Shown here one piece after another: positions 3,104 through 60,139 of a DNA stretch of 64,000 bases. Each line of letters begins with the position of its first letter. Positions within the stretch are counted from its first letter, which is position 1. The DNA is from a virus: IMG/VR virus record IMGVR_UViG_3300001202_000057, positions 1 to 64,000 of that record, one strand, 5' to 3'. Both the position numbers and the translations under genes were made by a program. Below the pieces are notes generated by a model. The model made no database searches. It was not told the DNA's origin and saw only the letters and a program-made list of their open reading frames with translations.

Positions 3104-3104
3104 T

Positions 3105-4847: not shown

Positions 4848-4860
4848 GACACTTGAAATT

Positions 4861-13907: not shown

Positions 13908-13911
13908 TAAT

Positions 13912-14406
13912 ATGAGTGGACAAATAAGATTTATTTCAGATCCACACTTTGGACATAGAAATATAGCTATACATAGAGGATTCAAAGATGAATTTGAAAT
14001 GAATGAGCATATTATAGCTCAATGGAATAAAGTAGTTAAGAAGAAAGATACAACTTGGATACTAGGAGATATAACTATGGAAAAAGGTGAATATCACTAT
14101 TTAGATAGATTGAATGGCTTCAAAAGAATTATTTTAGGAAATCATGACAAAGGTAATCATACTAAAGTTATGTTAGATTATGTTAATTCTATACATGGAT
14201 TAAGTAAATTTAGATCTAAAGAATTTGGTAATATTTGGTTATCACATTGTCCTATATTTCCTAAAGAATTAGAGTTCCGAGTTAACTATAATATTCATGG
14301 TCACATACATACTGGTTATGTAATAAATGACCCTAGATATATAAATGTGTGTATGGAAGTTCAAGATTATACACCAAAAACTTTACAAGAACTTATTAAA
14401 AAATAG
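13912..14406 (+). CDS. Calcineurin-like metallophosphoesterase (small, YfcE/MJ0936-like)
   Basis: ISDPHFGH, ILGDIT, LGNHD, LSHCP and HGHIH. ATG 13912 follows the upstream stop, whereas the ORF-track start at 13843 lies inside the previous gene. Confidence 0.7.
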   Translation: MSGQIRFISDPHFGHRNIAIHRGFKDEFEMNEHIIAQWNKVVKKKDTTWILGDITMEKGEYHYLDRLNGFKRIILGNHDKGNHTKVMLDYVNSIHGLSKFRSKEFGNIWLSHCPIFPKELEFRVNYNIHGHIHTGYVINDPRYINVCMEVQDYTPKTLQELIKK

Positions 14407-15451: not shown

Positions 15452-15452
15452 T

Positions 15453-19406: not shown

Positions 19407-19434
19407 AAACCATAATTGAATTTATATTAAAAAA

Positions 19435-19460
19435 GCCAGACTACAATTAAGTAGTCTGGC
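19435..19460. terminator. Bidirectional hairpin terminator at the convergence of the + and - gene arms
   Basis: gccagactac (19435..19444) pairs perfectly with gtagtctggc (19451..19460) across the loop aattaa. It is flanked by aaaaa upstream and tatatttt downstream. Confidence 0.75.
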
Positions 19461-19502
19461 TATATTTTAGGCTTAGTAGTTTTTTTTATCTCTGCCTATT
19501 TA

Positions 19503-22500
19503 TTATCTGTAAAATCTTTCTGCTAATTTTCTAGCCTCTTCTGATGCATATAAATGCCCATTAAATCCTAATGCTTTAAGTATTTTAGCATTGATTTTTA
19601 GATCTCCCTTATTAAATACTCCAGAGTCACGCTTGTATCTTTCACCCATATTAGGAAATTGTTTGAATATTTCTACAACCTTATTAAAACCTGATTCAGT
19701 TAAAGTTACAGTATTAGTAGTTCTACTAATAGCATTAAAATCTGGTAATCCAGCACTATTAATATCACCAACCATACCATAAGTCTTTAATTCTGAAAGT
19801 AATCTTAAACTAAAATACACTGCTAAGTTATATCCCGTATTCTTTTTGAGTTCTTCATCATTTTCACCCGCCTTAAGTAGAGCAAAACTAAGAACCCCTA
19901 CAGTAATAACAGCAGTTAATTCAAATATAGCTCGTTTAATATTAGCTTTTTCTCTCTTAGTCAAATTAACAGATTCTTTATTGAAAGGATTTAGTAATTT
20001 ACCTAATTCATTTCTCTGAAATAACAACATATCAACAAATTCTCTGTAACTACCTTTAGTTAGATCTCCAATTTCTTCATCAAAAGAAGTAGATTTAAAC
20101 CTTTTTTGAACACCAGGAACTAAGAATTTTCTATACATAGCTATTAATCCACCTAACCAATGTCTTTCTATATCTGTTTTATCTAATTGATTATATACAC
20201 CATGAAGTCTTTTATTAACTCCATGAAGCTTACTCATAAGCTTATAATCAACTTCTATAGCATCTACTCCATGTTTTTCATAGACCTCTAACATAGACAT
20301 CTGTTTACCTTGAAAAGTGATTTTTTTTTGTTGTAACATAGCTATCATAGCAGTTGCAGCAGCTTGATGTTCACCCTTTTCTTGAGCTTTAAACCAAGCA
20401 CCATCTAATAATTTTTTAGTTGTACTATTAGTCATTTTATTAATTGCACTGGAGTTATATTCTCTCATAGGATCATATAGTTCTATTAGTTTGGCAATAG
20501 TGCTTTGTGGTCTATCATGTCTATATCTATCATTAACAAAAGCTAACTGGGCTTCATATTTTCCATACAGGTAGAGAGCATTAGCCCATTCTGATTTATC
20601 AAAATACTCTCCTGCTATAGCTTCCATAGCTACCATAACATTAGCTTGTAGGGCATTAGCAATGTTAGTCAATTTAAGAGGGCCCATTTGAATGGTAGAC
20701 ACATATCTCATAAGACCAGCAGCAGCTTTATTAGCATCTACAGGTCCAAGATCTTGTTTAATTTTAGTTCTACCAATAATTTTATCATCAAAATAATCTA
20801 AAAAAGCTTTTTCAACATTATTTTCTCCATTTTTAACTCTTTCATATCTATCATCACCCTCAAACTCATGTGCATTATGCTTAAGTATTCTTTTACCAAC
20901 AGCATTAAGTTTAAATGGATTATCTGATTTTTTAATAGTAGTTATTAAAGATTCACCAAAACTTAATAAAGAATTTCTAGCTTCATATTCATTAGCTGCA
21001 TGATTATACAATAATACTGACTGCATTAAATCTAATGAGCTATCTTTAACATCCATGTGAAAATCATATTTCATATGAACAGAATTTTTAGCTGGATGTC
21101 CATACAAATCTATATCTTCCTCTTGACTGAGTAACTGATTTTTTAAACTGTATACAACATTATCTTTTAATTGTTCTAAAGAGTTATTTTCTAACAATTT
21201 TTCATCAGTACCTTTTGGTACTGAAGGAGTGTAAAATTTATCTTGTTCATTAGATTTCTCTGGTAATAATGATTGTGCTTTAAAGTATTGTCTAATCATT
21301 AAAGAATATACTTTCTGTTTAGGAGTAGTTGATTTATAACTAGTTTTAGGACTGCCATATAGATCTCTGAACTTAGGATCAAAAAATTTAGTCATATTAG
21401 GTATAGATAGCTCTCCAATTAGATCACCTTCAGCAGTTACATTCTTATCTCTCCAAGCTTTAAAATCTCCACGAGTTAACTGTTTTTCTTTTCTGGCTAC
21501 TATTGTATCAACACCTTCTAAAAGAATTTGACCATCTAGTATAATAGATTTTTGAGGTCTAGCTTGTCTATTAGCTTTATACCAACCTTTCATATGTCTA
21601 TTATAACCAGCACTATTAAATTCATGAAGTTTTAAAGCATCTTGTTTAGCTTTATATAAAGCTTTATTATATGCAGAATAACTTATAGGAGATATAAAAG
21701 ATCTACGTTCAGTTTCTTTACCATCTTTATCAAAAAAAGAATTAGTAGTATAAAAAGGTTCATTAATTTTAGCATAATTAGATCTATTACCACCTAATGT
21801 TTTTAAATAAGCATTATAAGTCTTACTAGCTTCATTCATAAATGGTGTAGATTTAACTCTGGCTTTCTCCATCCTTTCTTTTAGCAATTTAGCAAAACCT
21901 GCTATAAATTTATTTCTATTTTGAGATAAAGAAGTTACTTTATGTTCTAAAAAGCTTATATTATTATATAAACCATCTTTAAGTTGTTGATAAACTAATT
22001 CTTCCATAGAATCAGGCAGTATTAATTCACCATTAATTATTTTACCACCATTAGTTTCTATTTGTCTTTTTAAATCTTTTATTTTTAAATCTAAAACTTT
22101 TTTTCTACCTAAGCCCACTAATCCATTTCCTAAAGTTGCTATTTTAGCTTCTAATCTTTCTTTTTTTCTGAGTAGTTTTCTGGTATCAGCATTTTCTTTA
22201 GTTAATCTAGTTTCATCTAAAGTACTAGCAATAACTTTAGCCTGGAGCCTAGTAATAGTCTCTAAATGATTCTTTTCCATTAAGGCTACATGTTCTACTA
22301 TTTCTTTCATTTGAGCTAGTGGTGAACCTTTATCTGGCTCTAATCCAGTATCTCTCTCATTATACAAAGCTATTAAATCCCTAATCACAGGATTATTTTC
22401 TGGTAACATATCATATACCATATCATATATACCCTGTAACTTTTTTATTTCTTTTTCAACGTCAATATTTTCACTATTGTTTATTCTTTGAATAGAAGAA

Positions 22501-24116
22501 TTTAACATAGCTTTATAACCAGGAAAAGAAGTTCCATTACCAAATATCTGAGTGTGCATACCTTTTACAAAATTACCTACACCCATAGATTTCTCTACAA
22601 TATCCAAAGATTCTTTTAAATTAGATATAATACTAGTTTCAGTAATTTTACCTCTAGCTTCTAATTTAGCAATTTTTAATAATAAATGTTCTTTTAACTT
22701 ACTAGCTATTTTAGTAAATTCACTGTCAAACTTTTCATTAGATTTAGTTTTAGAAATATTTTCATCAATTTTATAAGCTTCAAATACTTCTTCATTAAGA
22801 TTTATTGTAAATTGATGTTCAGGCGATATAGATTCTATTGTGTTACCAGCAGTCTCTGTAAGATGTAGTGGTAAAATAGAAATAGGATTATTACCTAATC
22901 TATATCCTTTAGAATGAGCCATAGCTAAATACATACTTTGTTGAGCAGAGTGTTTCTCTTTAGTGCTAGCATGTTTATTACCTTCAGTATCTGTGAATCT
23001 TCTATTGTACTCTTTACTATGTTTTTTACCATCCATTGTAGGATTTATACTAGATTTTAAATCTACTATTTCAATAGCACCATTAGGTTTAATAGCTACA
23101 ACATCTAATGCACCACCAACACCTTTCTGCTTATTAAACATATTGACCTGGGTAAGAATAATATCATTAGGATTAGCTTTAACAAAGGTTTTAAATCTTT
23201 TATAAGTAGTATCAAATGCATCTTCTGAAATAGTTACCGGAAATTCATTTATAGCTTTTATAATATCAGATTTAGATTTCTTTTGTATAATACCACTTAA
23301 CATTTCATCTAATAGGTTACCCCACTCTCTATTATTTTCATATTTACTAGAATCTCCAGTGAATTTAAAATAGTCTTTTTCACCACTAGGACCTAACATT
23401 TGAGAAATAACATTAGAAGTTCTTTCTAATCTTAAACTACCATCTAGTATATAATGACTAAGATCATCAGATAATTCCATTCTATTAGAATCATTTAATA
23501 AATCTTCTACAGTTTCTCTTTGATTAACTGGAGAACTTTCAAGTATTTGACTAAAATATTGATTTACTCTGGGATCTTTATCTATTAATTGATTAAATAC
23601 ATTACCTTGCCTATTTGGATCAAATAAAGCACTATATACCATATCTATACTAGGTTCTGGTAGTGTTTGCTCTACTATTTCATTATTTTGTCTATCATCA
23701 AATAAGGATTTTTTAGCATTTTCTAAAGAGCCATTTAAAGCTCTAAAATTAGGATTCTCATCTTTATAGTGCATAAGACCAGAAGTACCAGTAACAGGTA
23801 TATATTCTATATTATTATCTCTAATAAAAACAGCTTCTATTTCTGAATCAGACATACCAGATTCTTGTAAGTCTCTGTAATGTCTTTTTAAACTATCAGA
23901 GAGTTGTGATGGAGAAAATTTAGAATCAAAATATTTAATATCTTTAGCCATAAGAAGAGATTTAGCCCATACTCTTAGGGCTAAGTCTTTATCTCCATGT
24001 ATTTCTTTCAAATTTAATATGTCTTGATATAATTGTGATGGATCACCATTAGTATCTAATACTTTAGTGATAATTCCATTATCATCTCTAAATATTCTTT
24101 GTCCACAATTTTTCAT
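19503..24116 (-). CDS. 1537-aa virion/ejected-type protein with an embedded RecB-like PD-(D/E)XK nuclease domain and a C-terminal hydrophobic segment
   Basis: GGALDVVAIKPNGAIEIVDLKSS (D338 ... D352-L-K354, nt 23049..23105) followed by HSAQQSMYLAMA (QxxxY). The rest is long coiled-coil-like sequence, with a hydrophobic stretch LTAVITVGVLSFALL near the C-terminus. The start is separated by 1 nt from the stop of the 4496-aa gene. Confidence 0.55.
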   Translation of the reverse strand: MKNCGQRIFRDDNGIITKVLDTNGDPSQLYQDILNLKEIHGDKDLALRVWAKSLLMAKDIKYFDSKFSPSQLSDSLKRHYRDLQESGMSDSEIEAVFIRDNNIEYIPVTGTSGLMHYKDENPNFRALNGSLENAKKSLFDDRQNNEIVEQTLPEPSIDMVYSALFDPNRQGNVFNQLIDKDPRVNQYFSQILESSPVNQRETVEDLLNDSNRMELSDDLSHYILDGSLRLERTSNVISQMLGPSGEKDYFKFTGDSSKYENNREWGNLLDEMLSGIIQKKSKSDIIKAINEFPVTISEDAFDTTYKRFKTFVKANPNDIILTQVNMFNKQKGVGGALDVVAIKPNGAIEIVDLKSSINPTMDGKKHSKEYNRRFTDTEGNKHASTKEKHSAQQSMYLAMAHSKGYRLGNNPISILPLHLTETAGNTIESISPEHQFTINLNEEVFEAYKIDENISKTKSNEKFDSEFTKIASKLKEHLLLKIAKLEARGKITETSIISNLKESLDIVEKSMGVGNFVKGMHTQIFGNGTSFPGYKAMLNSSIQRINNSENIDVEKEIKKLQGIYDMVYDMLPENNPVIRDLIALYNERDTGLEPDKGSPLAQMKEIVEHVALMEKNHLETITRLQAKVIASTLDETRLTKENADTRKLLRKKERLEAKIATLGNGLVGLGRKKVLDLKIKDLKRQIETNGGKIINGELILPDSMEELVYQQLKDGLYNNISFLEHKVTSLSQNRNKFIAGFAKLLKERMEKARVKSTPFMNEASKTYNAYLKTLGGNRSNYAKINEPFYTTNSFFDKDGKETERRSFISPISYSAYNKALYKAKQDALKLHEFNSAGYNRHMKGWYKANRQARPQKSIILDGQILLEGVDTIVARKEKQLTRGDFKAWRDKNVTAEGDLIGELSIPNMTKFFDPKFRDLYGSPKTSYKSTTPKQKVYSLMIRQYFKAQSLLPEKSNEQDKFYTPSVPKGTDEKLLENNSLEQLKDNVVYSLKNQLLSQEEDIDLYGHPAKNSVHMKYDFHMDVKDSSLDLMQSVLLYNHAANEYEARNSLLSFGESLITTIKKSDNPFKLNAVGKRILKHNAHEFEGDDRYERVKNGENNVEKAFLDYFDDKIIGRTKIKQDLGPVDANKAAAGLMRYVSTIQMGPLKLTNIANALQANVMVAMEAIAGEYFDKSEWANALYLYGKYEAQLAFVNDRYRHDRPQSTIAKLIELYDPMREYNSSAINKMTNSTTKKLLDGAWFKAQEKGEHQAAATAMIAMLQQKKITFQGKQMSMLEVYEKHGVDAIEVDYKLMSKLHGVNKRLHGVYNQLDKTDIERHWLGGLIAMYRKFLVPGVQKRFKSTSFDEEIGDLTKGSYREFVDMLLFQRNELGKLLNPFNKESVNLTKREKANIKRAIFELTAVITVGVLSFALLKAGENDEELKKNTGYNLAVYFSLRLLSELKTYGMVGDINSAGLPDFNAISRTTNTVTLTESGFNKVVEIFKQFPNMGERYKRDSGVFNKGDLKINAKILKALGFNGHLYASEEARKLAERFYR

Positions 24117-24117
24117 A

Positions 24118-27100
24118 TTATTCGCATTTACTTAGTTGTTCAATTAAATCATCTACTTTTTGCTGAGTAACTAACTCAGCTTTATTTCTATTAATCATAA
24201 TGTCTTCATTAACTAATAATTCAGCCAACTCTATAATAGTAGTATTAGCAGGTATAGTATCAGAATCCAAGTTTTTAATTCCTAATATTTCTTTTATGAA
24301 CTTTAAAAACTTGTTCAATATATTAGTCAATTTCTTAGGTTGAGATATTTGTGCTGCATGTTCTCCTAGCTTAGTTACAATAGCTTCTTCTATTAGTTCA
24401 TTAGTTTTATAGCCATTTTCTTTAAGTCTCTCTACTAGAGCCTTATCTTTCATGACTTCTCTCTCTAATTGTCTGTAGAGGGGCTTATTAGTTTTTTTTA
24501 TGGCTGCTATAAATGGGTGAGCAAATTCATGATACAAAGTATCTAATCTCATTTTGTTTGGGTTGAGGTATACAATATTAGTACTTTCATCATAAGCTCC
24601 TAAACCTCTTATCTCAGTAGAGAAGGCATATTCAATCCCAAATTTAGTACGTAGTTTTTCAAGAATAGTTCTAGCGTGCTTAATAGTGACTTTCTGCAAG
24701 TGAGAATCTAATTGATCTTTCATTCCAAAACTAGCAGCAGTAACACCTTTCTTACCACTTAAAGAAGATTTAAACTTTTTCTTTTTATCTTTCTTCTTTT
24801 TAGGCTCTTCTGAAATATCATCAGATAATTCACTAGCACCTAGTATAGCTGCATTTTCTTCAGTTGATACTTCTTCAACAGAAGCAGGTTCTGTAGAAAC
24901 ACCTGGAATATACCCAGGAGTTAACATAGCTTGATTGGTGGATAAAGGAATAGAACTAGCATCAAAATCTTTATTACCAATAGGAGCTACAGGAATATAT
25001 TCAAAAGAGTGACCTACAGAAGTATTACCAGTTATAGGTAACTCATTTCCTCTATAATCTTTAACTTTATGTAATTTAAACAATACAGTTTTAACACTAG
25101 CCCCTTTAGTGTACCTAAAAAATCCTTCTGCATCTTGAGTTATTTGTACTCCCATTCTAATTATTCTAGGAGCTATAATAACTGCATCTTCTGAAGCTTT
25201 GCCAGGTCTAATAAAAGGAAGTACTTTTTCAAATACTTGATTACCTTCACCATTAGTAAGATTCTTAATATTAGTAGCTAAAGTAGCTTCATGATCATTT
25301 TTAACTCCTTCTCCGACGTTTACAATAAGAGATTGCTTACTATCTTGCCAACTAACTAATCTTCTAGCTTTTTCAACTTTAAAATCTCTAACTCTTCTCC
25401 CCCTTACAAAGGTATACATATTCTGGGGATTTCTAGTAAATAATTCAAAGAATTCTTCAGGAATATTTTCTCCAAGTAAATCCTTATGACTTTCATCATT
25501 TAAAAAGTTTTCATGAACTTCTCCTAAAGATCTGGTAACTTTAGTTAATAATTGAGGAGCTATTTGTTTAACTAATCCATTATTAGAATATTTTAAACTA
25601 TCTTTAACCATTATATACTCAAACAAGTCAATAGCAAAATTCTTGTGATCAGAATTATTACTCTGAGCTAAAGCTAAAAAGTCATTTGTCAATTGTTCTA
25701 TAAAAGTTTCAGAATACTTATTTCTAGTATCACCTTCTATAACAGTAATACTCTTAGGAGTACCATCATAATAAGGAGATTTAGGAGTAAGTTCATAAGA
25801 GTTAAATTTTAAAAATTGTAGTAATAAATTTTCAGGTAATTCTTCTCTAAGAGCATTAACCTGACTCTTCATATAATTCTCATCAAACATTAACTGTTCA
25901 ACCCTTACTTGTGATACATCAATATTATTTTTCTTAATAAATGCCTTATTTTGTAAATAAGCCATCATACTAGAAACTACTTTATTTTTATTATCACTAA
26001 ACTCTATACTAGAAGTTTTTAATCCACTGGCTATCTCTCTAAATATTTTTTTAAATTTATCAGTTCTAGAAATAAAGAATTTTTTAGCTTGATTATCTAA
26101 TTCAAATAAGTTTTCTATTTGAGATTTTAAATAAGAATTAGCTAATAATATTTCTCCAAAATTTGTTATAGGAACAGGAATAATATTATCTGCAAAATAT
26201 AATTCTTTAGTTTCAGAATCGTATTTAATATTTAATTTATCAATAGCATTAAATATTCTATCTACATCAGACCAAGTACCTGATAAACCCTTAGCTAAAT
26301 CAGTTACAATAGCTACATTTTTAAAGTTGTCATTAATATCTGCTAAAGCCCTAAATTGTAATAATAAATAGTGTTGTAATTTATTAGCGTCATCAGTGCT
26401 AGCACCATTTTTAAGAGATTCAATTAAATCTTTTTCAGTTAATTTATAATCTTCTTCACTAGTAGGATATTCACCAATCATTTCATCAATAATGTCCTTC
26501 ATTTTAGTTTTAAGCTCTCTTTTTTCTTCTCTCTTAAGTACAGAAGATTTAGCTTTATCTATTTTATTAGACAATCTAACAATAGCAGGTTGCTTAAGAA
26601 TCATCATAGTCTTATTAAAAGACAGACCTGAAGAAATCATTATTAATGCTGGACCAATCATTTCCTTAGTTAAGTTAAACTCAGATGCAAATTGTTCTTT
26701 AGCATTATCCGTCATGGCAGCAAGTACAGAAGATATTAGACCATTAATTCTAGCTTTATCTTCATTTAAAAATTTACCATTCTCAATAGTAGTAGGTCCA
26801 ATAACTCTTTGGCCAAATAAATTTCCTACTGAATTACTTATAATAGATAAATGACCAGAAAAATTAGCTAACAACTGAAATGTAATATTCATTTTAGCTG
26901 CAGGACCAATATTAGCTCCACCAATATCAATAGCTTCAGCAGCATTTTGTTTGTTATTTTGATTGTGTACAGAACCAGATAATTTAACTTTTTTAGCTAT
27001 ACCCCTATCTTTTAGGAATTGTCTTAATGTTAAAAATGGATCAAAATTTGCTCCAGAAGCAGCTTGTACTTTATTACCAGAATTTTGAACAAAACGATTT

Positions 27101-30100
27101 TGAATATCTAATAAAGTATTGTTGTTTTCTTCTCTGCTTAGTGGTTTATATTTAGTTAAATCTCCTTTTTTAAAAGCTTTAATATTTCTTTTAATTCTTC
27201 TGCCATATTTAGCTTCAAAATCTTTAAAAGTATCAGGTTGTCCAAGAGCAATTAATAATTGTTGGTCAGAATATTTATTCTTTTTAACTAATAATTTAGC
27301 TTTAGGAGTTTTAAACAAACCTAATTTAAATTCTTCATAAGCAGTTTCTACTGGATTCTTAGAAGTCAAGTATCCACCAAATTTATTAATCCCAGAAACA
27401 TTAGTATAGAGTTCATATCTATTAGAGAATAATGAATCAATATCAAAATCCGCCCCTGATAAATATTGTATTTCAGCCGGAAGAACTATGGAGTTACCGT
27501 ATTCTCTAGGTAGAAAATCAACTATTCTAATATTAATCATAGAATACTTATCTTCCGTAGGAATTCTTACTCCTAGCTCCTTAGCTATATGTTCTGATAT
27601 AGAAATAGTTTCTCCTAGTTTAACATCATACTTATCTAATATCTCTTTAGAAATCATAACCTCAGAATAGTAAGTACCATCTTTATCCTTAATTCTGTGT
27701 CTTAATCTATCTGGGATAGATTTCTTTGGGGGAGGACTTCCTTGTTTATGTGGAGTAACAGAACCATCTAAATTTCTATTAACTTTAATATCTTGTCCTG
27801 GATATAGAGTATATTTAGTACCAGCAGTCTTTTGTTTAAGACTATTCTTAGATACACTAGATAAGAACATTGATTCAAACTTAGTTACTATAGCAGAAAA
27901 ATTCCAATTATATACTGGTCTATTAAGTTCATCTACTTTAAATATTTCTAATAAATAAGGATCAACGTTAGATTGCTTTAGAGATTCAATAAACTTAGAA
28001 TATAAATATTCAAAATCAGCTTGTCCATCTTTATTAATAACATCTACAATATTCTCAAGACCTTGTTGATTCCTAAGAGCTAACAAACCTTCATATATAG
28101 TTTGTAATTGACTAAGTTTAAATTCAGTACCTTTTATAGTAACTGGAGTAAGAGGATTTTGTTCTGAAAATATTAAGCCTAATTTTTGAGTACCATCTGT
28201 AATTTCAGATTTGTTACCATCTGTAATTACTTGTTCTCTCATATTAGTGTTCTCTATAATAGTAGGGTCTTGTTGGGACCATTTACCATCTTTAAATTCA
28301 GATACATTAGCCGTAGAACTCTTAGATACAGAAGTAGAAGCTAGTATTTCTACTACACCATCTTCTTCTAAGTTTAAAAACTCATGAAATTTTTCATACC
28401 CAGGTCTAGCTGTATATGCTTCTTGAACATCTTGAATAGAAATTTCATTTCTGTCATACTTGTCCCATAAAGCTAATAAAGATTCGTCACTAAGTTCTGA
28501 ATAGGAAGCTAATCCTCTAGTTACAGTACCCATAGACATCTTCATAGTACCAGTTAAATCTTTATACACAAACTTTCTAGACCTTATATCTGCATTGTTC
28601 TCTTTTAAGATTCTATACTCAGCAGGAGTAAGTTCTACACCGGTTCTAATTTTGTTCATGTAGATTTTCTCAACCTCTTTAGTGTAGACACCTTTATTCT
28701 TAAGATACATGATTGTATTTCTTAATCCTTGAGTTGCAAAACCATCTGCTAATTCTACTTCTGTTTTTTCATCTAATTTTACTCCATGATCTTCAAAATC
28801 TCTAATATTATCAATTTCCTCTTGAGTATAACCTTTTTCTAATAATTCTTCATTAGTAAATTGTCTGAATGGGTTAGCTAAATCAAATGGATTACTAGCA
28901 CTGAATGTTTCATCATTAGTATACATTACTTTTGATTGCCCATAGCCAACACTATTACCAGAAGCATTCTTAAGACCATTACGCTTTACAACATCAGTAG
29001 GGTTCTTATACATCATAGCATAATCACCATCTAATATATTAGATATAGCAAATGAATTTAACCAATCATTTAAAAAATAATTTCCTATATTAGCATGTAA
29101 TCCAGCCCCACCTACATATTCTTTAGGTAGTAGTTTATTTTTAGGATTTTTTCTATCACCAGTAATAAGACCTAGTTCTAATAATTTATCACTGAATACT
29201 TTAACTTCTGTATCCATAAACTTTTTAAGAGCTTCTCTAGTAGAATCTACAGTATTAATCTTCTTACCTTGAATAGCAGCTATAAATAACTTTCTTCTAG
29301 TATCTACATCTAAATCATAAAAATTGAAAAAATCTAAACCACTAAAATTAACTTTACCAGCACCAGATTCATTAGCTTTGTCAATTAAAGTTTGTTCCAT
29401 TTTGTCAAAAATTTCACGTGCTTTATTAACATCTGTTTTAGCCTCAATCATCTCCTGTTGAGTAAATTGCTTAAATCCAGTATTATAATTTTTAATTTTT
29501 CTAGTAGCTAATTCAGGATTTCTAATCTCATTAGCAATTCTAGCTATCCTAGTAAATTCTTGGTTTAATAAATCAGACATCCAATCTACAGCAAAACCAG
29601 ATGGCTTACCTCCTAAAAAGAAATTATGTATTGGTAATCTTAAATTGTAATTAGTGGATTTCTCTGCTATTACTCCTGTGTTGAAAAGTCTAGTATCAGT
29701 ACTAAATTTATTCTTATTAAAAGTAGCAGATGAATCAGCAAATTGCATCATATTCATAAGAGTTTTAGAAACTCTATCTGAAGACTTAAATGTTCTAGCT
29801 GTTCTTCTTAAAGCACCAGGAATACCAGTTTCTTTAGCATCATTAACATTATCAATAACTAAACCATCTTGAATAGTGTATGTTAATGTTTCAAATAGTT
29901 GTTGAGCATATTCTAAATTTTCTAAAGACACATTACCTTCTTTATCAACAGACATACCTTTAATAAGAGGATTATTAACAAATACTTCTAACATCATCTT
30001 AGCATCATAAGGATCACTAACTATTCCATTATCAATTATAAGTTGTAATAGTTGTTTTCTTGTTAAATCTCCTTTACCTATATCAGTGGCAGTAGCATAC

Positions 30101-33100
30101 TTAAATAATTCTTTTACTAATTCTTTCCTATCAGATCTCCACAACATTATTTGTTCAGTATAAAAACTATGAAATCTTCTAGGATAAATAGTTTTACCTT
30201 CAGAATTTTGAAATGTAGAATCAACTACAGATGGGTCAAATACAGCATTACCTTTAGCCATTTCTAAAAATAAACCAGAAAGACCTAAATTAGCATTATT
30301 ACGATTATTACTAAAGTCAGTAGAACTGTAAGGACCTTCAGGACCTACTTGCTCATCTTTAGTTTGTTCCATAATTTTAATATGAGCACCCATACCCATT
30401 ACTAATTTACCACCAGCAGCATGTTCACTTAAGAATAAAGGTACTTCACTAAATGCTTCTACAGTATCTAAAGCTTCTCTGTAAGCTGCAGCTTCATTTT
30501 CATCTCTAGCATTTTTAATTTTGTTTATTAAACCTTGCTTTCTTGTTTTAGAGGAACCACCAAAATTAATATAAGAATATAAGTTTAATTTAATATATTC
30601 AGGATCAAGAGTAATACCTAATTCTTTAAACTCATTTCTAATATTTTCTATAATAGTATCTGGGTCAGTAAATACTGATCCCACATTCTTATCAATTTGT
30701 AATTGAATATTTTTTAATCTCTGTAATACTTCTTTTCTAAGTTTTCCACCCTTAAGCTTTTTAGACTCCATCAAAGATGTAAACTTATTACGCCATCTAT
30801 CAAACTGCACCTGTTGTACATCCTTCTGATTAGCATTAAGAATTTTATAATTAGTATTCTCAGTATCAAAAATCATAGTCATAAAAGTAGACGTACTTTG
30901 ATAAAATCCATTAGAGATTAGATTATAAGTATTAGATTTAGATAATTCTTCTACAGTTAGGGACGTAATATCCCCATTATGGTCTATGACACCATTTAAT
31001 TCTTCCATGACATCTCTAAAGAACTCATGTCTGAACACATTCATATTTACATCAGTATTACCTAAATACTGTATTCTTTTAATTATATTTTCCCTAGTAG
31101 TATCAGACAGACCTCTAGCCAACATTGTATATATTTGTGGACCATCAGTAGCTAATATGTGTTTAGGATCAGTGTTATCTAAATTACTAAATTCTAAACC
31201 TAAATTAAATTCATCATAAGCATATGGTATTAAAGATATATACTGCTTAATTCTTTTAGATAGATTACCAAATCCACCTAATTCAAATTTAGACTTATCA
31301 AAGTTTTGTACTCCACCATTATTGTTTTCATCAGCTTCAGAAGAACTCTCAGAATCAAGAGCACTTACATCATAAAAATTAATAGAGTTTCTAACTTCTT
31401 TAATAATCTCTTTAATATTAGGATTATTAGAATCTTCAACATTGAAAGAATCTCTTCTTAATCCAATTGTATGTAATACTTTAGATAATTTATCAAAGTC
31501 TTCTCTTTTAGACAACTCTTTAATTTCATTGTTCCAATTTTCATCTTTAAAATTATCAGAAAACTTTTGAGTTTCTTCAAGTATTAATTCATTAGTAAGT
31601 TTTTCATTTTTTAATCTATTAAGTACATTTCTAGTAATAATACTAATAAACTTTTTAGCTTCATTAGCATTATAATATTGTATAGCTTCAGATTCATCTT
31701 CATCTATTTTTTTTAAACTAAATGCTAAATCAACAGAAGGGGGAGTAAACTTGGGGTTAAAATTTTTATATTTACCTTCAGAAATATTCTTAAATAAGTT
31801 CTCTACTTCATCAGACTTATTAAATATAGACTTAATTAAATCTATTAATTGATCAAATATACGTCTAATTAAAGATTTAGGTTTTTTAGCCTTATCATTA
31901 TTCATATAGTCTTGAAACATGTCAGCTAATTTCTCTTCATAATACAGTTCTAACAATTCTTGATTAGTCAAATTCTCATATTGAGTAACTCTACCTTGAA
32001 GTTGTGTCAATTCTGCTTGTAATTCTTTTGGAGAAAGTTTATTAGCTTTTTTCATAGCTCTATATAAAGAAGCTTTTTCTGAAGGTTTCAGAATTGTTCT
32101 AAATACATAATGAAATGCCTCATGGTATTCAGTACCTTTAGGTAAATTTTCAGCTAGATATATAATACCATTACTAAACAAACCATGTGGTATACCTGTA
32201 ATATCAAAGTTATGAAGAATAGTTTCTAATCTATCTACTGAGACATGATCACCTAAAATAGACTTAAGATTATCAACAGCTTTTTGTCTGTCTATTGAAT
32301 CTCCAAAATTACCATTTGTTATTTTAAATGGTGTATTATCTTTTGTATCTTTAGGTGTATTATCATTTATATAATCTTTAATCTGCTTATTAACTTTAGC
32401 AAGATTTAATTTAGTTAAATCTAAATTAAGATCTATACCAGTAGCATTTGAAAGTTCTGTTATAATTTCTAATACTTTTTCATTAACTTCTTGAGTAGCA
32501 GCAGGAGTTCCTATTATTCTAGATAAAGTACTTAGCTTTTTGTTCTCTGCAGCAACAGTCTTTAAATGTCCAGTACTATTATTGACTCCAGGATTAGATT
32601 TAGTAATAGGTGTTGGCCCTGAGCCACTATTTTCACCATTGTCAAAACCACCATTTACTATAGCTTTTAATTTTGATTTAGCTTCAGTAGATACTTTTAA
32701 TTTAAGTTTTCTTTTCTTCTTTTTCTTTTTACCCTTAACTCCTTTACCTTTATTTTTAATACTAGGAGTACTATTAAAAGGCAACATGCCTACTTTTTTA
32801 GGAGTAGTTTTAGGTACAAAAAATGGTACTGAATCAGAAGGTGCATTAGTAACAACCATTTGTTCAATACCTTCAGTTGTAGGAGCTGTATTCTTTTTAA
32901 AAGCACTCATTTTAACAGTAGATGCAATAGGATTAGCTTCATCTTTAGTTTCTCCATTATTTTTGTTAATTTGGTTAAATACACCAATAACATTATCAAG
33001 TGAGAAATCAATAAAACTAATACCAGATTTTATCTCAAGATTACCATTATCTTTACGTTTAACTTCAATGTTTCTAAATCTAGTTTCATCTTGTCCAACT

Positions 33101-36100
33101 TTAACTTGAAGACCTATAGTTAACCGATTTTTAGAAAAACCAGGAATTTTTTCATGTGTAGCTTCAACAAATTCATCATTAGCAAGTTCTTCTTTATTAG
33201 CTATAGCAGATTTAAGATTCATATTAATGTAAACGGTTCTATTATCATCATTCTTTACAGAAATAAATGTTTCAGAACCAGCACCTAATAAATCAATACC
33301 AGTACCAACACCATTAGTACCATTAGTAATAGTATCTAACTTTTGTTCATGTACTTCATCAGTAAAAAATCCAGGTTGTTCTATAGTATCAAACAAATCC
33401 TGTATAGTTCTAGTTATTCCAAATTCTAATGATTTAGATTCAGCTTCTGATAAATCAGTACTATTTAACCCTGGTGGAATACCCTCATACAAATAAATAT
33501 TACTATTTTCTGCATTAGCTCCATTTTCAGCGTATATTTCTAAATTAGGTTTTTTATTACTTAATTTTTCAAACTTTTTACCTGCTTTACCTTGTTTATT
33601 GTGAGTAGTAGATATTAATTTACCATCTATTTCTTCAATAGAATTGTATACTTTAATATTAGGATCAGAAGCATTAGCTTTAGTATGTTTTTTAAAGTAA
33701 GATTCTCTAACTCCTGCTACTTTATCATATAACTCTTTATCATCTACAGAATTTACTTCTCTAATACCATCATTGTCTTTAATATAGTAATCTCCCCTTC
33801 TACGATCAAAAATAACTAAACCTTTTACTCCATCACCTAAATCTACATAATGGTTAGATTTAAATGCTTCATCAATAGGCAAATTCTTTTTTTCTTTATT
33901 AGAATTTAAAGCTACTGAACGAGTACTACTATATAATTTAAAGTGCTTAGCCCAAACTTCATTAGGAATTTCTTCATCAGTATCATACTCATAAATTTTA
34001 TCCATCATTTTAGACATTTCAGTAAAATAATGTTGAAAATCAAGTCCTTTTTGAGTTATATTACCTTTAGCAGATACAAATGCTGGATTAAATAATTTTA
34101 AATCTGCCACATCATTTGGATCTAAAGGTACTTTTTCTTTGTCAACTACTTTATGAAATCTTCTAGGGTCTAATACAATACCTAATTCTCTATTTTCCTC
34201 ATTTGTACCAAAAGCTTTTTTTATATAAGCAGTTACTTTATACTGAGATTGTTGGTTTCTATCTTTATTATTAGACATAATACCAATCTTTTCAAATACA
34301 CCAGTATTACCTTTTGGTTTAAAACCAGAAGGATTAGTTTTATGCTCTGATTTTTCAATTTTGAATTGAACTCTATTTCTAGCTCCAGAATTCTCTCTAA
34401 AAAATTGTTGATTATCTTTTATCTCATTATTATCATAATGCCAAATTTCAGAAATAAATTTAGCTACATGTGCTATAGTATTAGGTTTAGTAACAACAGT
34501 TTCAAGATCTTTAGCAGAACTAACTAACAATTGTTCAACTTCAGTCATATGATTATTTAACATAGTCAAATAACTCTCAAAATCTTGTTTGGCTTCTCCC
34601 TCAGGAAATTGAGATATATGATTGGTGACATGTTGAATCTCTGATTTTAAAATCTTTTTTATACTATTTAATGTAGAAATATTTTTATCTATAGATTCTT
34701 TACTTTCAGGATCTTTAACATAGTTTTTACTATGTGGTGCAAGTTTACCTAAATGATTATTTATTGCTTCTTTAACAGCTTCAGTTTGAATATCATCAGA
34801 TTGATATCTTACAGAGAAAATATATTCATTATTTGATTTATCTACTACATCTTCAGACTTTTGTAATTCTTCAGTAATCTCTTGTTCAGAAACTTCTGTC
34901 CTACTTAATCTCTCTTGAATAGATTTTCTAGCTAAATCTCTAGTTAAAGCTTTCTTTTGATCTAAAAAATTTCCAGTTAATCTAGTCAGTCTTTCTTTAT
35001 CAACTTTTCTAGTGTGGTGTTTTTCAATTTCCTTTTTAAATATTTCTATATCAGATAAAAAATTTCTTTTACCTTGTGTACTAGTCAGTTGTTCAAATTC
35101 CCAAATAGCAGACTTTTGTCTATTAGTAGCTTCTTCAACCTCTTTGAATAAATTGTCTACTTCAGTTTTTATATACGGATGTTCTTTTAAAAGACTATTA
35201 AGATTTCTTTTGTGATGATTTGCATTTTCTACAACTTTAGTAATTTTTTCTATAGATAAATTCTTAAACTGATTAGGTTTTTTAGCTTTACTTTTAGTTT
35301 GAATCTCTTTAGCTATAACATCATATTCAGCTAACAGTTTTTTCTTGACTTCTGGAGAAGAGGCTGCATCAATAGCTCTTCTTTTAGATATAGCCTCTTT
35401 AATTGGACCTGAAAATCTATTTACATCAGCTATTGCTTCTGCATCTATACCATCAACACCTAACTTATCAAAAGTATCTTCAAAAGATTTATTAATTTGA
35501 CCAATTTTAGTGGCTCTAACTTTATTCAAATGATTTATACTATGTATAGTATAAGCTAATGCTTCTTCATAATCAGTATCTAAATCTTCATTACTAACTA
35601 TCTTTTTAGCATTTTTAAGAGCTTTAGCTACAGACTGATTAGCCTCTTTAACATGAGTTCTAATTTCATTTTTAATTTGATCTAAAGATTTATCTCCAAC
35701 TTCAATATCTTCAGGAGTTACTCCCTTTGAGTTAGCTGCAAAATCTTTATAATCTTCAATTGATTTAATATTGTCAAGAATGTGATTTACATCTGACTCA
35801 TAAACGTCCCCCATACCTGCCCTGTGTCTAGCAGCAGAGGCTCTAAAAAAAGCATCATTTTCAGCTATTTCATTAGAAAGAATAGTTTTCCCATCTCCTT
35901 TTAAACTTTCAAAGTTAGCTACAACAACAGACATAGTTTCTGTTAGATTTTTCTTGGCAAATGTTGAATTGATATCTTTAGCCATTTTTTCTTGATCAGC
36001 TTTAATTTTACCCCAATCACCAGTAAATACATCTAATCCATTGACTTCATTACCTTTTGCATTTTGTACAAAAGAAGAAGTTTTACCAATAACAGCACCT

Positions 36101-37610: not shown

Positions 37611-39740
37611 TTAATTTATATTAATAGTTTTTTGAGCTTGTATTGATTTATCTAACATTAAATTAGCAAAATCTGCAAATGGTATTTTACCATCAGAAGT
37701 TATAAATACTGGCATAAAAGCATTGTTTTGCCTATCATGCTCTACTTGTATTTTATACTTAACTCCATCTACAGTTATACTTTGAGGTTCAAAGTAATTT
37801 GATTTTGTAGGATCTGCATAAACCATATCTAAAGCTTTTTCTATAGGTTTTTTATACTCTTTTGTTTTAGAATTTTCTATTCTAACATGAAGATTTGTTT
37901 GTACACCTTCTTCATTAACAGTACTAACTAAATAATCTGGTAATTTAAATTTACCATCAACTCTACTAGGAGTATTAAATCCTGATCTAGCTTGAATTTT
38001 TATTTTAGCTCCTTGTAAAATATTACCATCAGAAACTACCTTACCATCTTCATCAAATATAGTACCTCCTGGAGGCATTATAAAGACATTACCAGGACCT
38101 ATTAAAGCTTTTTCAGCTTCTTCTATTCCTGCTTCAGATAAAGGTATATGAGCTGCAGCTACTGATCTAGTATTATTAACTGTATCTTCAAAATAAGCTA
38201 TAAGTTCATCCTGTTGTTTTGAAGTATACCTAGAATTAGATTTAGACTCTTCAAACTCTTTAATTTTTTCTTTAAATTTAGGATCACCACTAGCTTTTAA
38301 AGCTTCTATAAAGTTTCCTGCAAAAGAGTCCATTTTAGTATTTATAATTTTTCCATCTGTTTTAGCAGCTCCGCCTGGTGCAAATAAATCCTTAAATCTA
38401 CCAATTATTGTATCTGTAGATTCAATTTCACCATCATGAACTTCAGTAACTTTACCAAATATACTATGATCAGGTCTTTTCTCAGACTTAGAAGTGCTCT
38501 TTTTATCAAAAGATTTTTCAGCTATAGTTCTTTTAAAAGTTTTACCTAAAGACTTTATAGTTTCACTTGTTTCAAAAGATCTAAGTGATTCAACGAACGG
38601 TTTAGAAATATTACTAAAATGTTCTGTAGTTAAATTATTAATTATATCATTATCTGATAAAGTAGATAATTTTTTAGTTCTATCATTTAAAGTTCCTATA
38701 TTAGTATTTATAGCTTCAATACCTTCATCCAATTTTGATATAGCATCTTCTAAAGCTGCTCTAGTTCTAGGTCCGTCTGCATTATCTACATCTAATCCAG
38801 CATTAAAATTATCATTCAATGCTTTTTGCAATCCTTTTATATCTGTATCAGCTAAATTTTGTAAATTGGCTTTTAAATTTGTGGCTTCAGTAAGCCCTTC
38901 ATTTTGAGTTGTTAAATTAGTATCTATATTATCTTTAAGTCCAGTTCTATGAGTATTAAAATCAGTTTTTGCTCTAGTAAACTGTTGAAATAGCTCTAAA
39001 TGTCCTGACTCTTTAGCTCTTCTAGCAACTAATGAATCTACATCATTTTGAAGTTTCTGAATTTCTTTATTTGTCCAACCTTTTTCTGTTAAAGTTCTAG
39101 CAATATTAATTCCATCTACTTGGCCTAATTCTGTAGTAGTTAATGAATTTTTAACTTTAGGTTGTAATTTAATAAATTCAGTTATTTCTTTATTATAATC
39201 TGGTATATCAGCAGGCTTTCCAAAATTAAGTGATTTACCTGCAGCTAGTCCACCAACACCATTATCATTAAGAGTATTATATTGCTCTAAACCCCTATTT
39301 ACATATGCCCAATAAGCTTCCCTATTTTGTAGTTTACCCTCACTTCTAAGTTTATCTGCTTCAGCTATTCTAGTTGCAACTGCTTTTTTATTAGCAGCTA
39401 TTTTAGCTAAGTTCCCAGTTGCAACATTTCTAGCTATAGAAGTACTTGCTTCTTTTAAAGCCCTATTAGCTTTACTAATATTATCTGGACTATCTGCAAA
39501 CATTTGAGTAACACCATCTACAGTTTGTTTTATCTGCTCAAGTTCATTGTCTCTAAGTGCTTCATCTACTTGCAATGCATCTACATTAATATCAGATAAT
39601 GTTTTAAAAGTATCAAATTTCTGTTGTTGTCCAGCTAATACTGCTCCGAAAGCTTCAAAGTTTGGAGTTGGTATTTCATCAGGAACATAATAGTTTGTAC
39701 TAAAATCTCTCCTGAATGGTTGAAAATATCTATTTGTCAT
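37611..39740 (-). CDS. 709-aa virion-associated protein, largely coiled-coil (function unknown)
   Basis: A long ORF 2 nt upstream of the giant gene. It is rich in Ala/Lys/Glu/Asn heptad-like sequence and has no enzymatic motif. Confidence 0.45.
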   Translation of the reverse strand: MTNRYFQPFRRDFSTNYYVPDEIPTPNFEAFGAVLAGQQQKFDTFKTLSDINVDALQVDEALRDNELEQIKQTVDGVTQMFADSPDNISKANRALKEASTSIARNVATGNLAKIAANKKAVATRIAEADKLRSEGKLQNREAYWAYVNRGLEQYNTLNDNGVGGLAAGKSLNFGKPADIPDYNKEITEFIKLQPKVKNSLTTTELGQVDGINIARTLTEKGWTNKEIQKLQNDVDSLVARRAKESGHLELFQQFTRAKTDFNTHRTGLKDNIDTNLTTQNEGLTEATNLKANLQNLADTDIKGLQKALNDNFNAGLDVDNADGPRTRAALEDAISKLDEGIEAINTNIGTLNDRTKKLSTLSDNDIINNLTTEHFSNISKPFVESLRSFETSETIKSLGKTFKRTIAEKSFDKKSTSKSEKRPDHSIFGKVTEVHDGEIESTDTIIGRFKDLFAPGGAAKTDGKIINTKMDSFAGNFIEALKASGDPKFKEKIKEFEESKSNSRYTSKQQDELIAYFEDTVNNTRSVAAAHIPLSEAGIEEAEKALIGPGNVFIMPPGGTIFDEDGKVVSDGNILQGAKIKIQARSGFNTPSRVDGKFKLPDYLVSTVNEEGVQTNLHVRIENSKTKEYKKPIEKALDMVYADPTKSNYFEPQSITVDGVKYKIQVEHDRQNNAFMPVFITSDGKIPFADFANLMLDKSIQAQKTININ

Positions 39741-39742
39741 TA

Positions 39743-45409: not shown

Positions 45410-45411
45410 TA

Positions 45412-60116: not shown

Positions 60117-60139
60117 ATTTAATTATTTTAATTTATTTA

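What the first reader, a model, noticed from the sequence alone, without database searches (positions are those of the whole stretch)
27436..27573. Beta-prime-like double-psi beta-barrel catalytic signature (RIPT ... ADFDID) inside the 4496-aa ORF: candidate virion RNA polymerase
The minus-strand translation reads GVRIPTEDKYSMINIRIVDFLPREYGNSIVLPAEIQYLSGADFDIDSLF (R3348, D3387/D3389/D3391). The equivalent bacterial beta-prime segment is [43 protein letters not shown]. Both share R-x-P-T, a hydrophobic strand, I-x-L-(x)-P and then A-D-F-D-x-D. The spacing is nearly identical: 39 versus 35 residues from the Arg to the first Asp.

Single-chain two-barrel RNAPs with a DxDxD motif are known from crAss-like phages. 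Cellulophaga phage phi14:2 gp66 is about 2180 aa, is packaged in the virion and is ejected into the host (Drobysheva and colleagues 2021, as I recall, where the motif is also of the DFDID type). They are also known from QDE-1/YonO-type enzymes.

Here the motif sits about 3390 aa into a protein twice the size of gp66. I could not confidently locate the partner (beta-like) barrel by eye. LDGDYAMMYKNPTDVVKRNGLKNASG, upstream of the motif, is only a weak candidate.
Basis: partly seen in the sequence, partly recalled or inferred. Interest (0 to 1): 0.9.

Follow-up and report, generated by a model that had tools for sequence, protein, structure and literature searches.

The report
Giant fused crAss-type virion RNA polymerase

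Summary
The minus-strand ORF 24118-37608 encodes 4,496 aa, and the peptide GVRIPT...ADFDIDSLF is aa 3346-3394 (window 27427-27573).

A profile of the surrounding 1,001 aa matches Cellulophaga phage phi14:2 gp66 residues 859-1832 with E 2.5e-76. An AlphaFold model (pLDDT 82) hits the gp66 crystal structure 6VR4 first (E 1.7e-25, TM 0.67), then QDE-1 and other two-barrel RNA polymerases. R3348 and D3387/3389/3391 are invariant in 141 of 141 homologues.

The gene sits where crassviruses keep their ejected cargo: ring, muzzle, two small proteins, this ORF, then a gp65-like ORF.

The ORF is a fusion of three parts:
- a gp67/Gp47-like N-terminus with an HEAFH module;
- the polymerase;
- a second, paralogous HEFAH module.

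Giant fused forms are already known: crAssphage gp44 is 4,070 aa, Fpv1 gp33 is 4,401 aa, and a review cites genes up to about 6,000 aa. Most of the 150 best metagenomic homologues listed are 3,500-5,500 aa.

Verdict: a divergent new member of a known kind, of modest interest. Packaging, cleavage and activity are inferred, not shown.

The parts
24118..37608 (-). [not shown]
35359..37608 (-). aa 1-750: N-terminal module homologous to phi14:2 gp67 and crAss001 Gp47, with two mildly hydrophobic segments at aa 135-153 and 369-387
   Evidence: The family profile hits gp67 67-532 at E 4e-42 and Gp47 86-722 at E 1.4e-80.
32659..35358 (-). aa 751-1650: variable Lys/Glu-rich spacer, ending in the poly-Lys run 1627-1634
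   Evidence: Tiles covering aa 601-1800 match only the 92%-identical relative P0002.
31759..32271 (-). [not shown]
29062..31311 (-). aa 2100-2849: family-conserved region upstream of the polymerase core. It probably corresponds to the N-terminal domains of gp66.
   Evidence: Conserved in 42-63 of the 150 representatives. Matches are only weak and colinear: gp66 513-721 (hhalign E 3.5e-4, prob 37%) and crAss gp44 534-723.
28234..29034 (-). aa ~2859-3125: block that aligns with the gp66 region preceding its Connector (the beta-like barrel). It contains the GD..YK..KR motif and invariant K3012, K3023 and K3096.
   Evidence: HMM alignment to gp66 859-1094.
27814..28233 (-). aa ~3126-3265: Connector-like segment between the two barrels
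   Evidence: Aligns with gp66 1095-1238.
27409..27813 (-). aa ~3266-3400: beta'-like barrel. It carries R3348-I-P-T and 3387-DFDID-3391; DFDID is window 27436-27450 and the flagged peptide is 27427-27573.
   Evidence: R3348, P3350, S3356, G3385, D3387, D3389 and D3391 are invariant in 141/141. Position 4 of the motif is I or V and never G. A profile of this region hits only 6VR4 in the PDB, E 4.2e-15.
26866..26964 (-). aa ~3549-3581: bridge-helix-like long helix, with G3563 and G3568 conserved
   Evidence: Aligns with the gp66 bridge helix 1529-1559. The model has helices at positions 701-732.
26605..26724 (-). aa ~3629-3668: trigger-loop-like element containing the TDNAKE motif
   Evidence: Aligns with the gp66 trigger loop 1598-1636. 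D3634 is conserved in 140/141.
24859..26058 (-). aa 3851-4250: C-terminal part of the polymerase module, function unknown
   Evidence: Conserved in 32-57 of the 150 representatives. No significant match to the reference proteins.
24274..24612 (-). [not shown]
19503..24116 (-). Downstream 1,537-aa ORF, homologous to the C-terminal part of phi14:2 gp65 (RNAP-associated protein) and to the C-terminus of crAssphage gp44
   Evidence: BLASTP E 2e-12 to gp65 871-1380 and E 1.6e-19 to gp44 3772-3969.
37611..41239 (-). Two upstream ORFs (498 aa and 709 aa) in the position of crAss001 cargo proteins Gp45 and Gp46
   Evidence: Synteny only. Sequence matches are not significant.
41252..46650 (-). Crassvirus muzzle protein (1,385 aa) and tail ring protein 1 (412 aa), which anchor the locus in a crassvirus tail/cargo block
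   Evidence: Pfam crAss_MUZ E 3.9e-26 and CrAss_Ring_1 E 3.2e-12, both above their cut-offs. phrog_15100 E 3e-104.

Best explanation
Identity. Residues ~2850-3850 of the 4,496-aa protein are the catalytic core of a single-chain, two-barrel, DNA-dependent RNA polymerase. It belongs to the family that crAss-like phages package in the virion; the prototype is phi14:2 gp66.

Active site. The flagged peptide is the beta'-like barrel. R3348 and the Asp triad D3387/D3389/D3391 would hold the catalytic Mg2+. The beta-like barrel (aa ~2859-3125), a Connector, a bridge helix and a trigger loop complete the active centre.

Gene structure. The gene is a fusion of what are separate neighbouring cargo genes in other crassviruses:
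- a gp67/Gp47-like N-terminal protein ending in an HEAFH module;
- the polymerase;
- the HExxH-bearing start of the gp65-like protein. The rest of that protein is the next ORF.

Inferred steps (not shown). The protein is made late and packed into the capsid as cargo. It is probably cut into its parts, possibly by its own two HExxH modules. It is then pushed through the tail into the host ahead of or with the DNA. There it refolds and transcribes the early genes independently of the host polymerase.
For: Homology to the polymerase family:
- tblastn hits only crAss-like phages, in genes annotated as RNAP catalytic subunit.
- BLASTP to gp66 and to crAssphage gp44 covers the motif and the trigger-loop region.
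- An exhaustive HMMER search finds 708 homologues, 175 of them at E<=1e-30.
- The family HMM hits gp66 859-1832 at E 2.5e-76, crAssphage gp44 at E 2.6e-54, Fpv1 gp33 at E 4e-31 and crAss001 Gp50 at E 1.7e-63.
- No homologue used in the profile is more than 28% identical to gp66.

Structure:
- The AlphaFold model has pLDDT 82.2 and pTM 0.84.
- Foldseek against the PDB gives 6VR4 at E 1.7e-25 and TMq 0.67 over 1,083 columns, then QDE-1 (prob 0.97), P23-45 gp96, Pol I A190 and beta'.
- Foldseek against viral models returns only crAss-like phage proteins at the top.

Conservation: the catalytic residues are invariant in 141/141 homologues, and motif position 4 is I or V, as in gp66.

Gene context:
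- Pfam identifies the crassvirus muzzle and ring proteins just upstream.
- Gene order matches Fpv1, phi14:2 and crAss001.

Experimental basis in relatives:
- gp66 is virion-packaged, needs Mg2+, and loses RNA synthesis when any aspartate of the triad is substituted by alanine. It also gives rifampicin-resistant early transcription.
- Gp47, Gp49 and Gp50 were found in crAss001 virions by mass spectrometry.
Against: - No experiment exists for this protein. Packaging, cleavage, ejection and activity all rest on homology and synteny.
- Pfam and PHROGs give no hit for the ORF.
- Single-sequence phmmer against the PDB misses gp66.
- Identity to gp66 is only ~15-35% in the aligned parts.
- The gp66 cleft-blocking domain was not located.
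- The barrel boundaries come from an HMM alignment and a predicted model, not from a residue-level superposition.
Confidence: 0.9

Rival explanations
1. It is a two-barrel RNA polymerase that works only inside the infected cell (a non-virion polymerase, like the phiKZ nvRNAP or P23-45 gp64) and is not packaged or ejected.
For: Foldseek also lists the phiKZ nvRNAP and the P74/P32 phage polymerases, but only weakly (E 0.4-0.9). Packaging was not tested here.
Against: The gene lies inside the late structural and cargo block, directly after ring, muzzle and two cargo-position ORFs. Its N-terminal and core parts are orthologous to proteins found in virions by mass spectrometry: phi14:2 g066 and g067 (annotation) and crAss001 Gp47 and Gp50. 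The best structural match by 20 orders of magnitude is the virion enzyme 6VR4.
Confidence: 0.05
2. It is a structural or ejection protein that keeps a dead polymerase-like domain. The motif would be a relic with no catalysis.
For: Most of the 4,496 aa has no assigned enzymatic function. In the gp66 crystal the DFDID motif adopts a conformation incompatible with Mg2+ binding.
Against: The Asp triad, R3348, P3350, S3356, G3385, E3316 and Q3141 are invariant in 141/141 homologues that are only ~25-38% identical overall. That pattern indicates purifying selection on an active site. gp66, with the same DFDID, is active in vitro.
Confidence: 0.03
3. It is a different kind of virion polymerase: an N4-type (T7-like single-subunit) vRNAP, or a tape-measure-fused polymerase like P23-45 gp96.
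For: It is a giant virion-associated protein in a podovirus-like gene block. P23-45 gp96 appears in the fold search (E 5.7e-3).
Against: No T7-like or N4 vRNAP structure appears among the matches listed by the fold search or in the sequence searches. The gp96 match is a distant two-barrel relative with TMq 0.10, against 0.67 for gp66. There is no tape-measure context, and the neighbours are crassvirus ring and muzzle proteins.
Confidence: 0.01

Closest known systems
Cellulophaga phage phi14:2 gp66, virion-packaged DNA-dependent RNA polymerase (PDB 6VR4; Drobysheva et al., bioRxiv 10.1101/2020.03.07.982082)
   Same: The DFDID motif is the same, with a non-Gly fourth residue. The two barrels, Connector, bridge helix and trigger loop are colinear: HMM E 2.5e-76 over gp66 859-1832, and Foldseek E 1.7e-25 with TMq 0.67. 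The position in the cargo gene block is also the same.
   Different: gp66 is a separate 2,180-aa protein flanked by separate gp67 and gp65. Here gp67-like, gp66-like and the start of gp65-like are one 4,496-aa chain. Identity is only ~15-35%. An HEAFH module precedes the polymerase, and gp66 and gp67 contain no HExxH motif.
Bacteroides phage crAss001 cargo proteins Gp47, Gp49 and Gp50 (Bayfield et al. 2023, PMC10172136)
   Different: In crAss001 these are three genes, two of them on the opposite strand from Gp47. Here there is a single ORF plus one downstream ORF, all on one strand.
p-crAssphage (Carjivirus communis) gp44 (4,070 aa, 'RNAP catalytic subunit fused to unknown RNAP subunit') and gp45 ('RNAP associated protein fused to zincin protease')
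   Same: It is a giant fused polymerase gene with the DFD[IV]D motif (DFDVD at 1433). BLASTP gives E 5e-13 and the HMM E 2.6e-54. The C-terminus of gp44 is homologous to the window's downstream 1,537-aa ORF.
   Different: The fusion points differ. In crAssphage the polymerase is fused to the gp65-like C-terminal part, and the zincin-bearing protein is separate and upstream. Here the upstream protein is fused and the gp65-like C-terminal part is separate.
Flavobacterium phage Fpv1 gp33 (4,401-aa 'virion structural protein')
   Same: Gene order is identical (gp30-31-32-33-34 against 1385-498-709-4496-1537 aa) and the size is similar. Fpv1 gp33 has RTPT...DYDID at 3222 and a C-terminal HEVIH at 4179. 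The core HMM gives E 4e-31.
   Different: It is very divergent: pairwise BLASTP is only E 0.006-0.03. Fpv1 gp33 has no HExxH motif upstream of the polymerase.
QDE-1-type eukaryotic RNA polymerases and cellular beta/beta' subunits (two-barrel superfamily)
   Same: The fold class is shared, as is the R-x-P-T ... DxDxD arrangement in the catalytic barrel. Foldseek gives QDE-1 E 2.8e-3 (prob 0.97), and Pol I A190 and E. coli beta' at E 0.05-1.
   Different: No sequence-profile similarity to beta' is detectable. This protein is a single chain. The fourth motif residue is Ile, not Gly. Most of the protein has no counterpart in those enzymes.
Coliphage N4 virion RNA polymerase (Schitoviridae)
   Same: It works alike: a giant polymerase packed in the capsid and ejected to transcribe early genes.
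   Different: The fold is unrelated (T7-like single-subunit). No similarity was found in any search here.

Membership tests
crAss-like phage virion RNA polymerase (gp66 family) | Significant sequence homology to gp66 and its orthologues across the catalytic core | tested here: met
   The family HMM hits gp66 859-1832 at E 2.5e-76, crAssphage gp44 at E 2.6e-54 and crAss001 Gp50 at E 1.7e-63. A profile of the motif region hits only 6VR4 in the PDB, E 4.2e-15.
crAss-like phage virion RNA polymerase (gp66 family) | DFDxD catalytic motif with a non-glycine fourth residue, conserved across orthologues | tested here: met
   3387-DFDID-3391. All three Asp are conserved in 141/141; position 4 is I in 120 and V in 21, never G.
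crAss-like phage virion RNA polymerase (gp66 family) | Two double-psi beta-barrels in one chain joined by a ~140-residue Connector, plus a bridge helix and a trigger loop | tested here: met
   The predicted structure (pLDDT 82) superposes on 6VR4 over 1,083 columns with TMq 0.67. The HMM alignment places the Connector at aa ~3126-3265, the bridge helix at ~3549-3581 and the trigger loop at ~3629-3668. This is a prediction, not an experimental structure, and no residue-level superposition was available.
crAss-like phage virion RNA polymerase (gp66 family) | Encoded in the cargo block downstream of the tail ring and muzzle genes, next to gp67-like and gp65-like genes | tested here: met
   Pfam crAss_MUZ and CrAss_Ring_1 lie upstream. 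The gp67-like part is fused at the N-terminus (E 4e-42). The gp65-like ORF is downstream (E 2e-12).
crAss-like phage virion RNA polymerase (gp66 family) | Cleft-blocking domain that auto-inhibits the packaged enzyme (gp66 196-233) | tested here: inconclusive
   The region upstream of the core gives only weak colinear matches to gp66 513-721 (hhalign prob 37%). The equivalent of residues 196-233 was not found.
crAss-like phage virion RNA polymerase (gp66 family) | Present in the virion, ejected into the host, and responsible for rifampicin-resistant early transcription | not testable with these tools
   Known for phi14:2 and crAss001 orthologues only.
Zincin-like metalloprotease (the domain reported in gp65 and crAssphage gp45) | HExxH on a helix, plus a downstream Glu as third metal ligand | tested here: met
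   [not shown]
Zincin-like metalloprotease (the domain reported in gp65 and crAssphage gp45) | Recognisable zincin fold or profile match to a characterised metalloprotease | tested here: not met
   [not shown]
Cellular multisubunit RNA polymerase beta' subunit | Profile-level sequence homology to RpoC or Rpb1, with a DFDGD motif | tested here: not met
   No beta' chain appears at E<=10 with the motif-region profile. The motif is DFDID. Only weak fold-level matches exist (E 0.05-1). It belongs to the same superfamily but is not a member of this family.
Crassvirales (the phage order) | Crassvirus-type major capsid protein, portal and large terminase | not tested
   No capsid, portal or terminase gene was identified among the window ORFs that were scanned; in phi14:2 and Fpv1 those genes lie further upstream of the ring and muzzle genes. 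Only the ring, muzzle and cargo genes support the assignment.

The most novel reading that the evidence does not exclude
The 506-kDa chain may be a self-processing ejection polyprotein. Two paralogous HExxH...EE modules bracket the polymerase, one before it and one after it. They could cut the chain at the Lys-rich linkers that precede them (aa 1627-1634 and 4270-4280), releasing and activating the polymerase during capsid maturation or after ejection. That would be a built-in protease switch for a virion enzyme. The flanking-duplicate arrangement (N-Z-R-Z) is shared by about 19 of 115 long homologues. I did not find it described in the papers I could read.
Probability: 0.3. Interest if true: 0.5.

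Novelty: new member of a known kind. Interest (0 to 1): 0.3.

Why it matters
The finding assigns a function to the largest gene of an uncultured, AT-rich crAss-like phage. The phage has no close relative in the GenBank phage collection: megablast found nothing, and the IMG/VR relatives recovered are 30-35% identical.

It also shows that the fully fused layout, N-terminal cargo protein plus HExxH module plus polymerase, is the commonest among the long homologues examined. 113 of the 115 homologues of at least 3,400 aa carry an HExxH module upstream of the core.

For the field it adds a divergent sequence that sharpens the list of truly invariant active-site residues: R3348, P3350, S3356, G3385, the Asp triad, E3316, Q3141, and K3012/K3023/K3096 in the beta-like barrel. 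It also offers a natural construct in which the question of polyprotein processing could be tested.

It does not change the current picture of crassvirus transcription.

Tried and rejected
- Pfam and PHROGs scans of the whole ORF returned nothing useful.
- Single-sequence phmmer against the PDB gave only a PCAF bromodomain match to aa 4357-4440 (E 0.005). I judged it chance, because it overlaps the HEFAH module and has no supporting context.
- The word-index homology search found one weak hit only. The exhaustive HMMER search was needed.
- Megablast of the gene and of the left 19.4 kb against GenBank phages found no match.
- Exact-sequence look-ups of the protein and of P0002 found no record.
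- Yutin et al. 2018 and the Nature version of Drobysheva et al. are not held. The polyprotein statement is therefore cited from the bioRxiv version.
- The first alignment was too large for structure prediction.
- The N4-type and tape-measure-fused polymerase readings were considered and rejected.
Full report
**Observation.** The window has a 13,491-nt minus-strand ORF, 24118-37608, encoding 4,496 aa.
- The peptide GVRIPTEDKYSMINIRIVDFLPREYGNSIVLPAEIQYLSGADFDIDSLF is aa 3346-3394, window 27427-27573.
- R3348 and D3387/D3389/D3391 are as stated.
- The composite pattern R.PT-x(25-45)-D[FY]D.D occurs once in all six frames and in 0 of 2,000 shuffles of the protein.
- A bare D[FY]D.D turns up in 153 of 2,000 shuffles, so the Asp motif alone would prove little.

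**First look with standard libraries.** Pfam and PHROGs give nothing for the ORF, and phmmer against the PDB misses everything relevant. tblastn of aa 2301-4496 against 50,697 phage records hits 68 records. All are crAss-like phages, always at query aa ~3123-3427, in genes annotated as RNAP catalytic subunit (E down to 1e-9).

**Direct comparison with the reference enzyme.** BLASTP gives the following matches:
- aa 3307-3394 to phi14:2 gp66 1272-1368, E 7.5e-7. DFDID aligns with 1361-DFDID-1365.
- aa 3614-3754 to gp66 1592-1733, E 1.6e-4. This covers the trigger-loop region.
- aa 3202-3394 to crAssphage gp44, E 5e-13.

**The family.** An exhaustive HMMER search with aa 2800-3999 finds 708 proteins at E<=1e-3 and 175 at E<=1e-30.
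- Most of the best 150 are 3,500-5,500 aa, with the match at residue ~2,400-3,500.
- One, P0002, is 92% identical and also 4,496 aa. It sits on a 116.9-kb metagenomic contig.

I built an HMM from 141 sequences: the window's aa 2850-3850 and the matching segments of 140 of these proteins. None of the homologues is more than 28% identical to gp66. With the E-value scaled to the size of the PDB, the HMM gives:
- gp66 859-1832 in one stretch, E 2.5e-76;
- crAssphage gp44 883-1895, E 2.6e-54;
- Fpv1 gp33 2583-3700, E 4e-31;
- crAss001 Gp50 963-1901, E 1.7e-63.

A 22-sequence profile of the motif region alone finds a single significant PDB entry, 6VR4 (E 4.2e-15). It finds no beta' chain.

**Structure.** An AlphaFold2 model of aa 2850-3850, built with a 28-sequence alignment, has mean pLDDT 82.2 and pTM 0.84.
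- Foldseek against the PDB ranks 6VR4 first: E 1.7e-25, probability 1.00, TM 0.67 normalised to the query, 1,083 columns.
- Next come QDE-1 (E 2.8e-3, prob 0.97), the tape-measure-fused polymerase gp96 of P23-45, then Pol I A190, E. coli beta' and the phiKZ non-virion polymerase at E 0.05-1.
- Against predicted viral structures, the named top hits are crAss-like phages, the phi14:2 protein and the virus NIOZ-UU157.
- As far as I know, 6VR4 (released 2020) post-dates the AlphaFold2 training set, so the match should not be recall.

**Anatomy of the core.** I used the domain limits published for gp66 and the HMM alignment.
- The block before the Connector, which is the beta-like barrel, is aa ~2859-3125.
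- The Connector is aa ~3126-3265.
- The beta'-like barrel with the flagged motif is aa ~3266-3400.
- The bridge helix is aa ~3549-3581. The model has a long broken helix there.
- The trigger loop is aa ~3629-3668, with the TDNAKE motif.

Conservation across the 141 aligned sequences:
- R3348, P3350, S3356, G3385, D3387, D3389, D3391, E3316 and Q3141 never change.
- The fourth residue of the Asp motif is Ile (120) or Val (21), never Gly. This is the signature of the phage enzyme as opposed to cellular DFDGD.
K2875 and R2876 are kept in 69 and 73 of the ~75 sequences that cover it.
- That motif aligns with gp66 GDPANYKNMVDFFKR and crAssphage GGDQSFYKNGQAILKR.
- K3012, K3023 and K3096 in the same block are also kept wherever the column is covered.
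- Which of these residues correspond to the conserved lysines of the cellular beta barrel could not be decided without a residue-level superposition.

**Why the protein is so large.** It is a fusion of neighbouring cargo genes.
- A profile of aa 1-750 hits phi14:2 gp67 67-532 (E 4e-42) and crAss001 Gp47 86-722 (E 1.4e-80).
- Tiles covering aa ~600-1800 match only the 92% relative, and aa 751-1650 are Lys/Glu-rich.
- The next ORF (19503-24116, 1,537 aa) matches the C-terminal part of phi14:2 gp65 (E 2e-12) and the C-terminus of crAssphage gp44 (E 1.6e-19).
- Among 115 long homologues the layouts are N-Z-R (67), Z-R (27), N-Z-R-Z (17, the window's layout) and Z-R-Z (2).

**Context.** Upstream on the same strand lie the following:
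- a protein matching Pfam CrAss_Ring_1 (E 3.2e-12) and one matching crAss_MUZ, the crassvirus muzzle (E 3.9e-26);
- then two ORFs of 498 and 709 aa, in the position of crAss001 cargo proteins Gp45 and Gp46.

The order muzzle, two small genes, giant gene, large gene is the same in Flavobacterium phage Fpv1: gp30, gp31, gp32, gp33 (4,401 aa, with RTPT...DYDID and a C-terminal HEVIH) and gp34. As in phi14:2, the block ends at a convergent junction with plus-strand genes. In the window this junction carries a perfect hairpin flanked by T runs.

**What is known already.**
- gp66 is packaged and needs Mg2+. It loses RNA synthesis when any aspartate of the triad is substituted by alanine.
- The same paper states that in some phages the gp65, gp66 and gp67 orthologues are fused into one huge polyprotein that is probably cleaved. 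It also states that one of them has a zincin-like domain.
- A review describes crAss RNAP genes of up to ~6,000 aa as a hallmark of the group and summarises the rifampicin-resistant early transcription.
- crAssphage gp44 is 4,070 aa and is annotated as a fused RNAP.
- Gp47, Gp49 and Gp50 of crAss001 are in the virion by mass spectrometry and are modelled as cargo that unfolds to pass through the tail.

**Mechanism.**
- Shown here: homology, predicted fold, conservation of the active site, fusion architecture and cargo-block context.
- Inferred: late synthesis, packaging as capsid cargo, ejection ahead of or with the DNA, refolding, and host-independent transcription of early genes using the Asp triad and Mg2+.

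**Verdict.** The thing itself is a divergent new member of the known crassvirus virion polymerase family, in a fused form that is already documented and is the commonest layout among the long homologues examined. I score interest at about 0.3. The only part I could not find described is the pair of paralogous HExxH modules bracketing the polymerase.

Noticed in passing
[not shown]
   Followed up: yes
[not shown]
   Followed up: partly
window 1035-6399 (+): A cluster of COOH-NH2 ligase, ATP-grasp (RimK-like), glutamine amidotransferase and amidoligase genes, by PHROG matches. It suggests a peptide or metabolite modification pathway unrelated to the polymerase. The 4732-6399 ORF as listed (GTG start) overlaps the preceding ORF by 116 nt.
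   Followed up: no
window 9648-12237 and 14630-17096 (+): Ribonucleotide reductase small and large subunits, then ribose-phosphate pyrophosphokinase plus nicotinamide phosphoribosyltransferase (an NAD salvage pair). Gene content of this kind is more typical of phages with larger genomes.
   Followed up: no
window 13843-14406 (+): A metallophosphatase 59% identical to phi14:2 g063 (tblastn E 6.5e-64). That is far closer than any structural or cargo gene (25-35%). It hints at a related host range or at gene exchange with Cellulophaga phages.
   Followed up: no
window 19434-19461: A perfect 11-bp-stem hairpin (6 G-C pairs) with T-rich tails on both strands. It sits exactly at the convergent junction between the plus-strand module and the end of the cargo operon, so it is a likely bidirectional terminator. 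Two sites were found against 0.1 expected.
   Followed up: partly
window 54090-63184 (-): Two large ORFs upstream of the tail genes: 2,008 aa with no family match at all, and 1,014 aa with only an Ig-like (Big_9/Cadherin_5) domain. They may be fibres or receptor-binding proteins.
   Followed up: no
window 24289-24540 (-), aa 4357-4440: A weak phmmer match to PCAF/KAT2B bromodomains (E 0.005) overlaps the HEFAH module. I judged it a chance match.
   Followed up: partly
whole window: The window has no tRNA genes and a G+C content of 30.6%. No megablast match to any GenBank phage was found for the giant gene or for the left 19.4 kb. The IMG/VR relatives of the polymerase that the scan recovered are only 30-35% identical.
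   Followed up: partly
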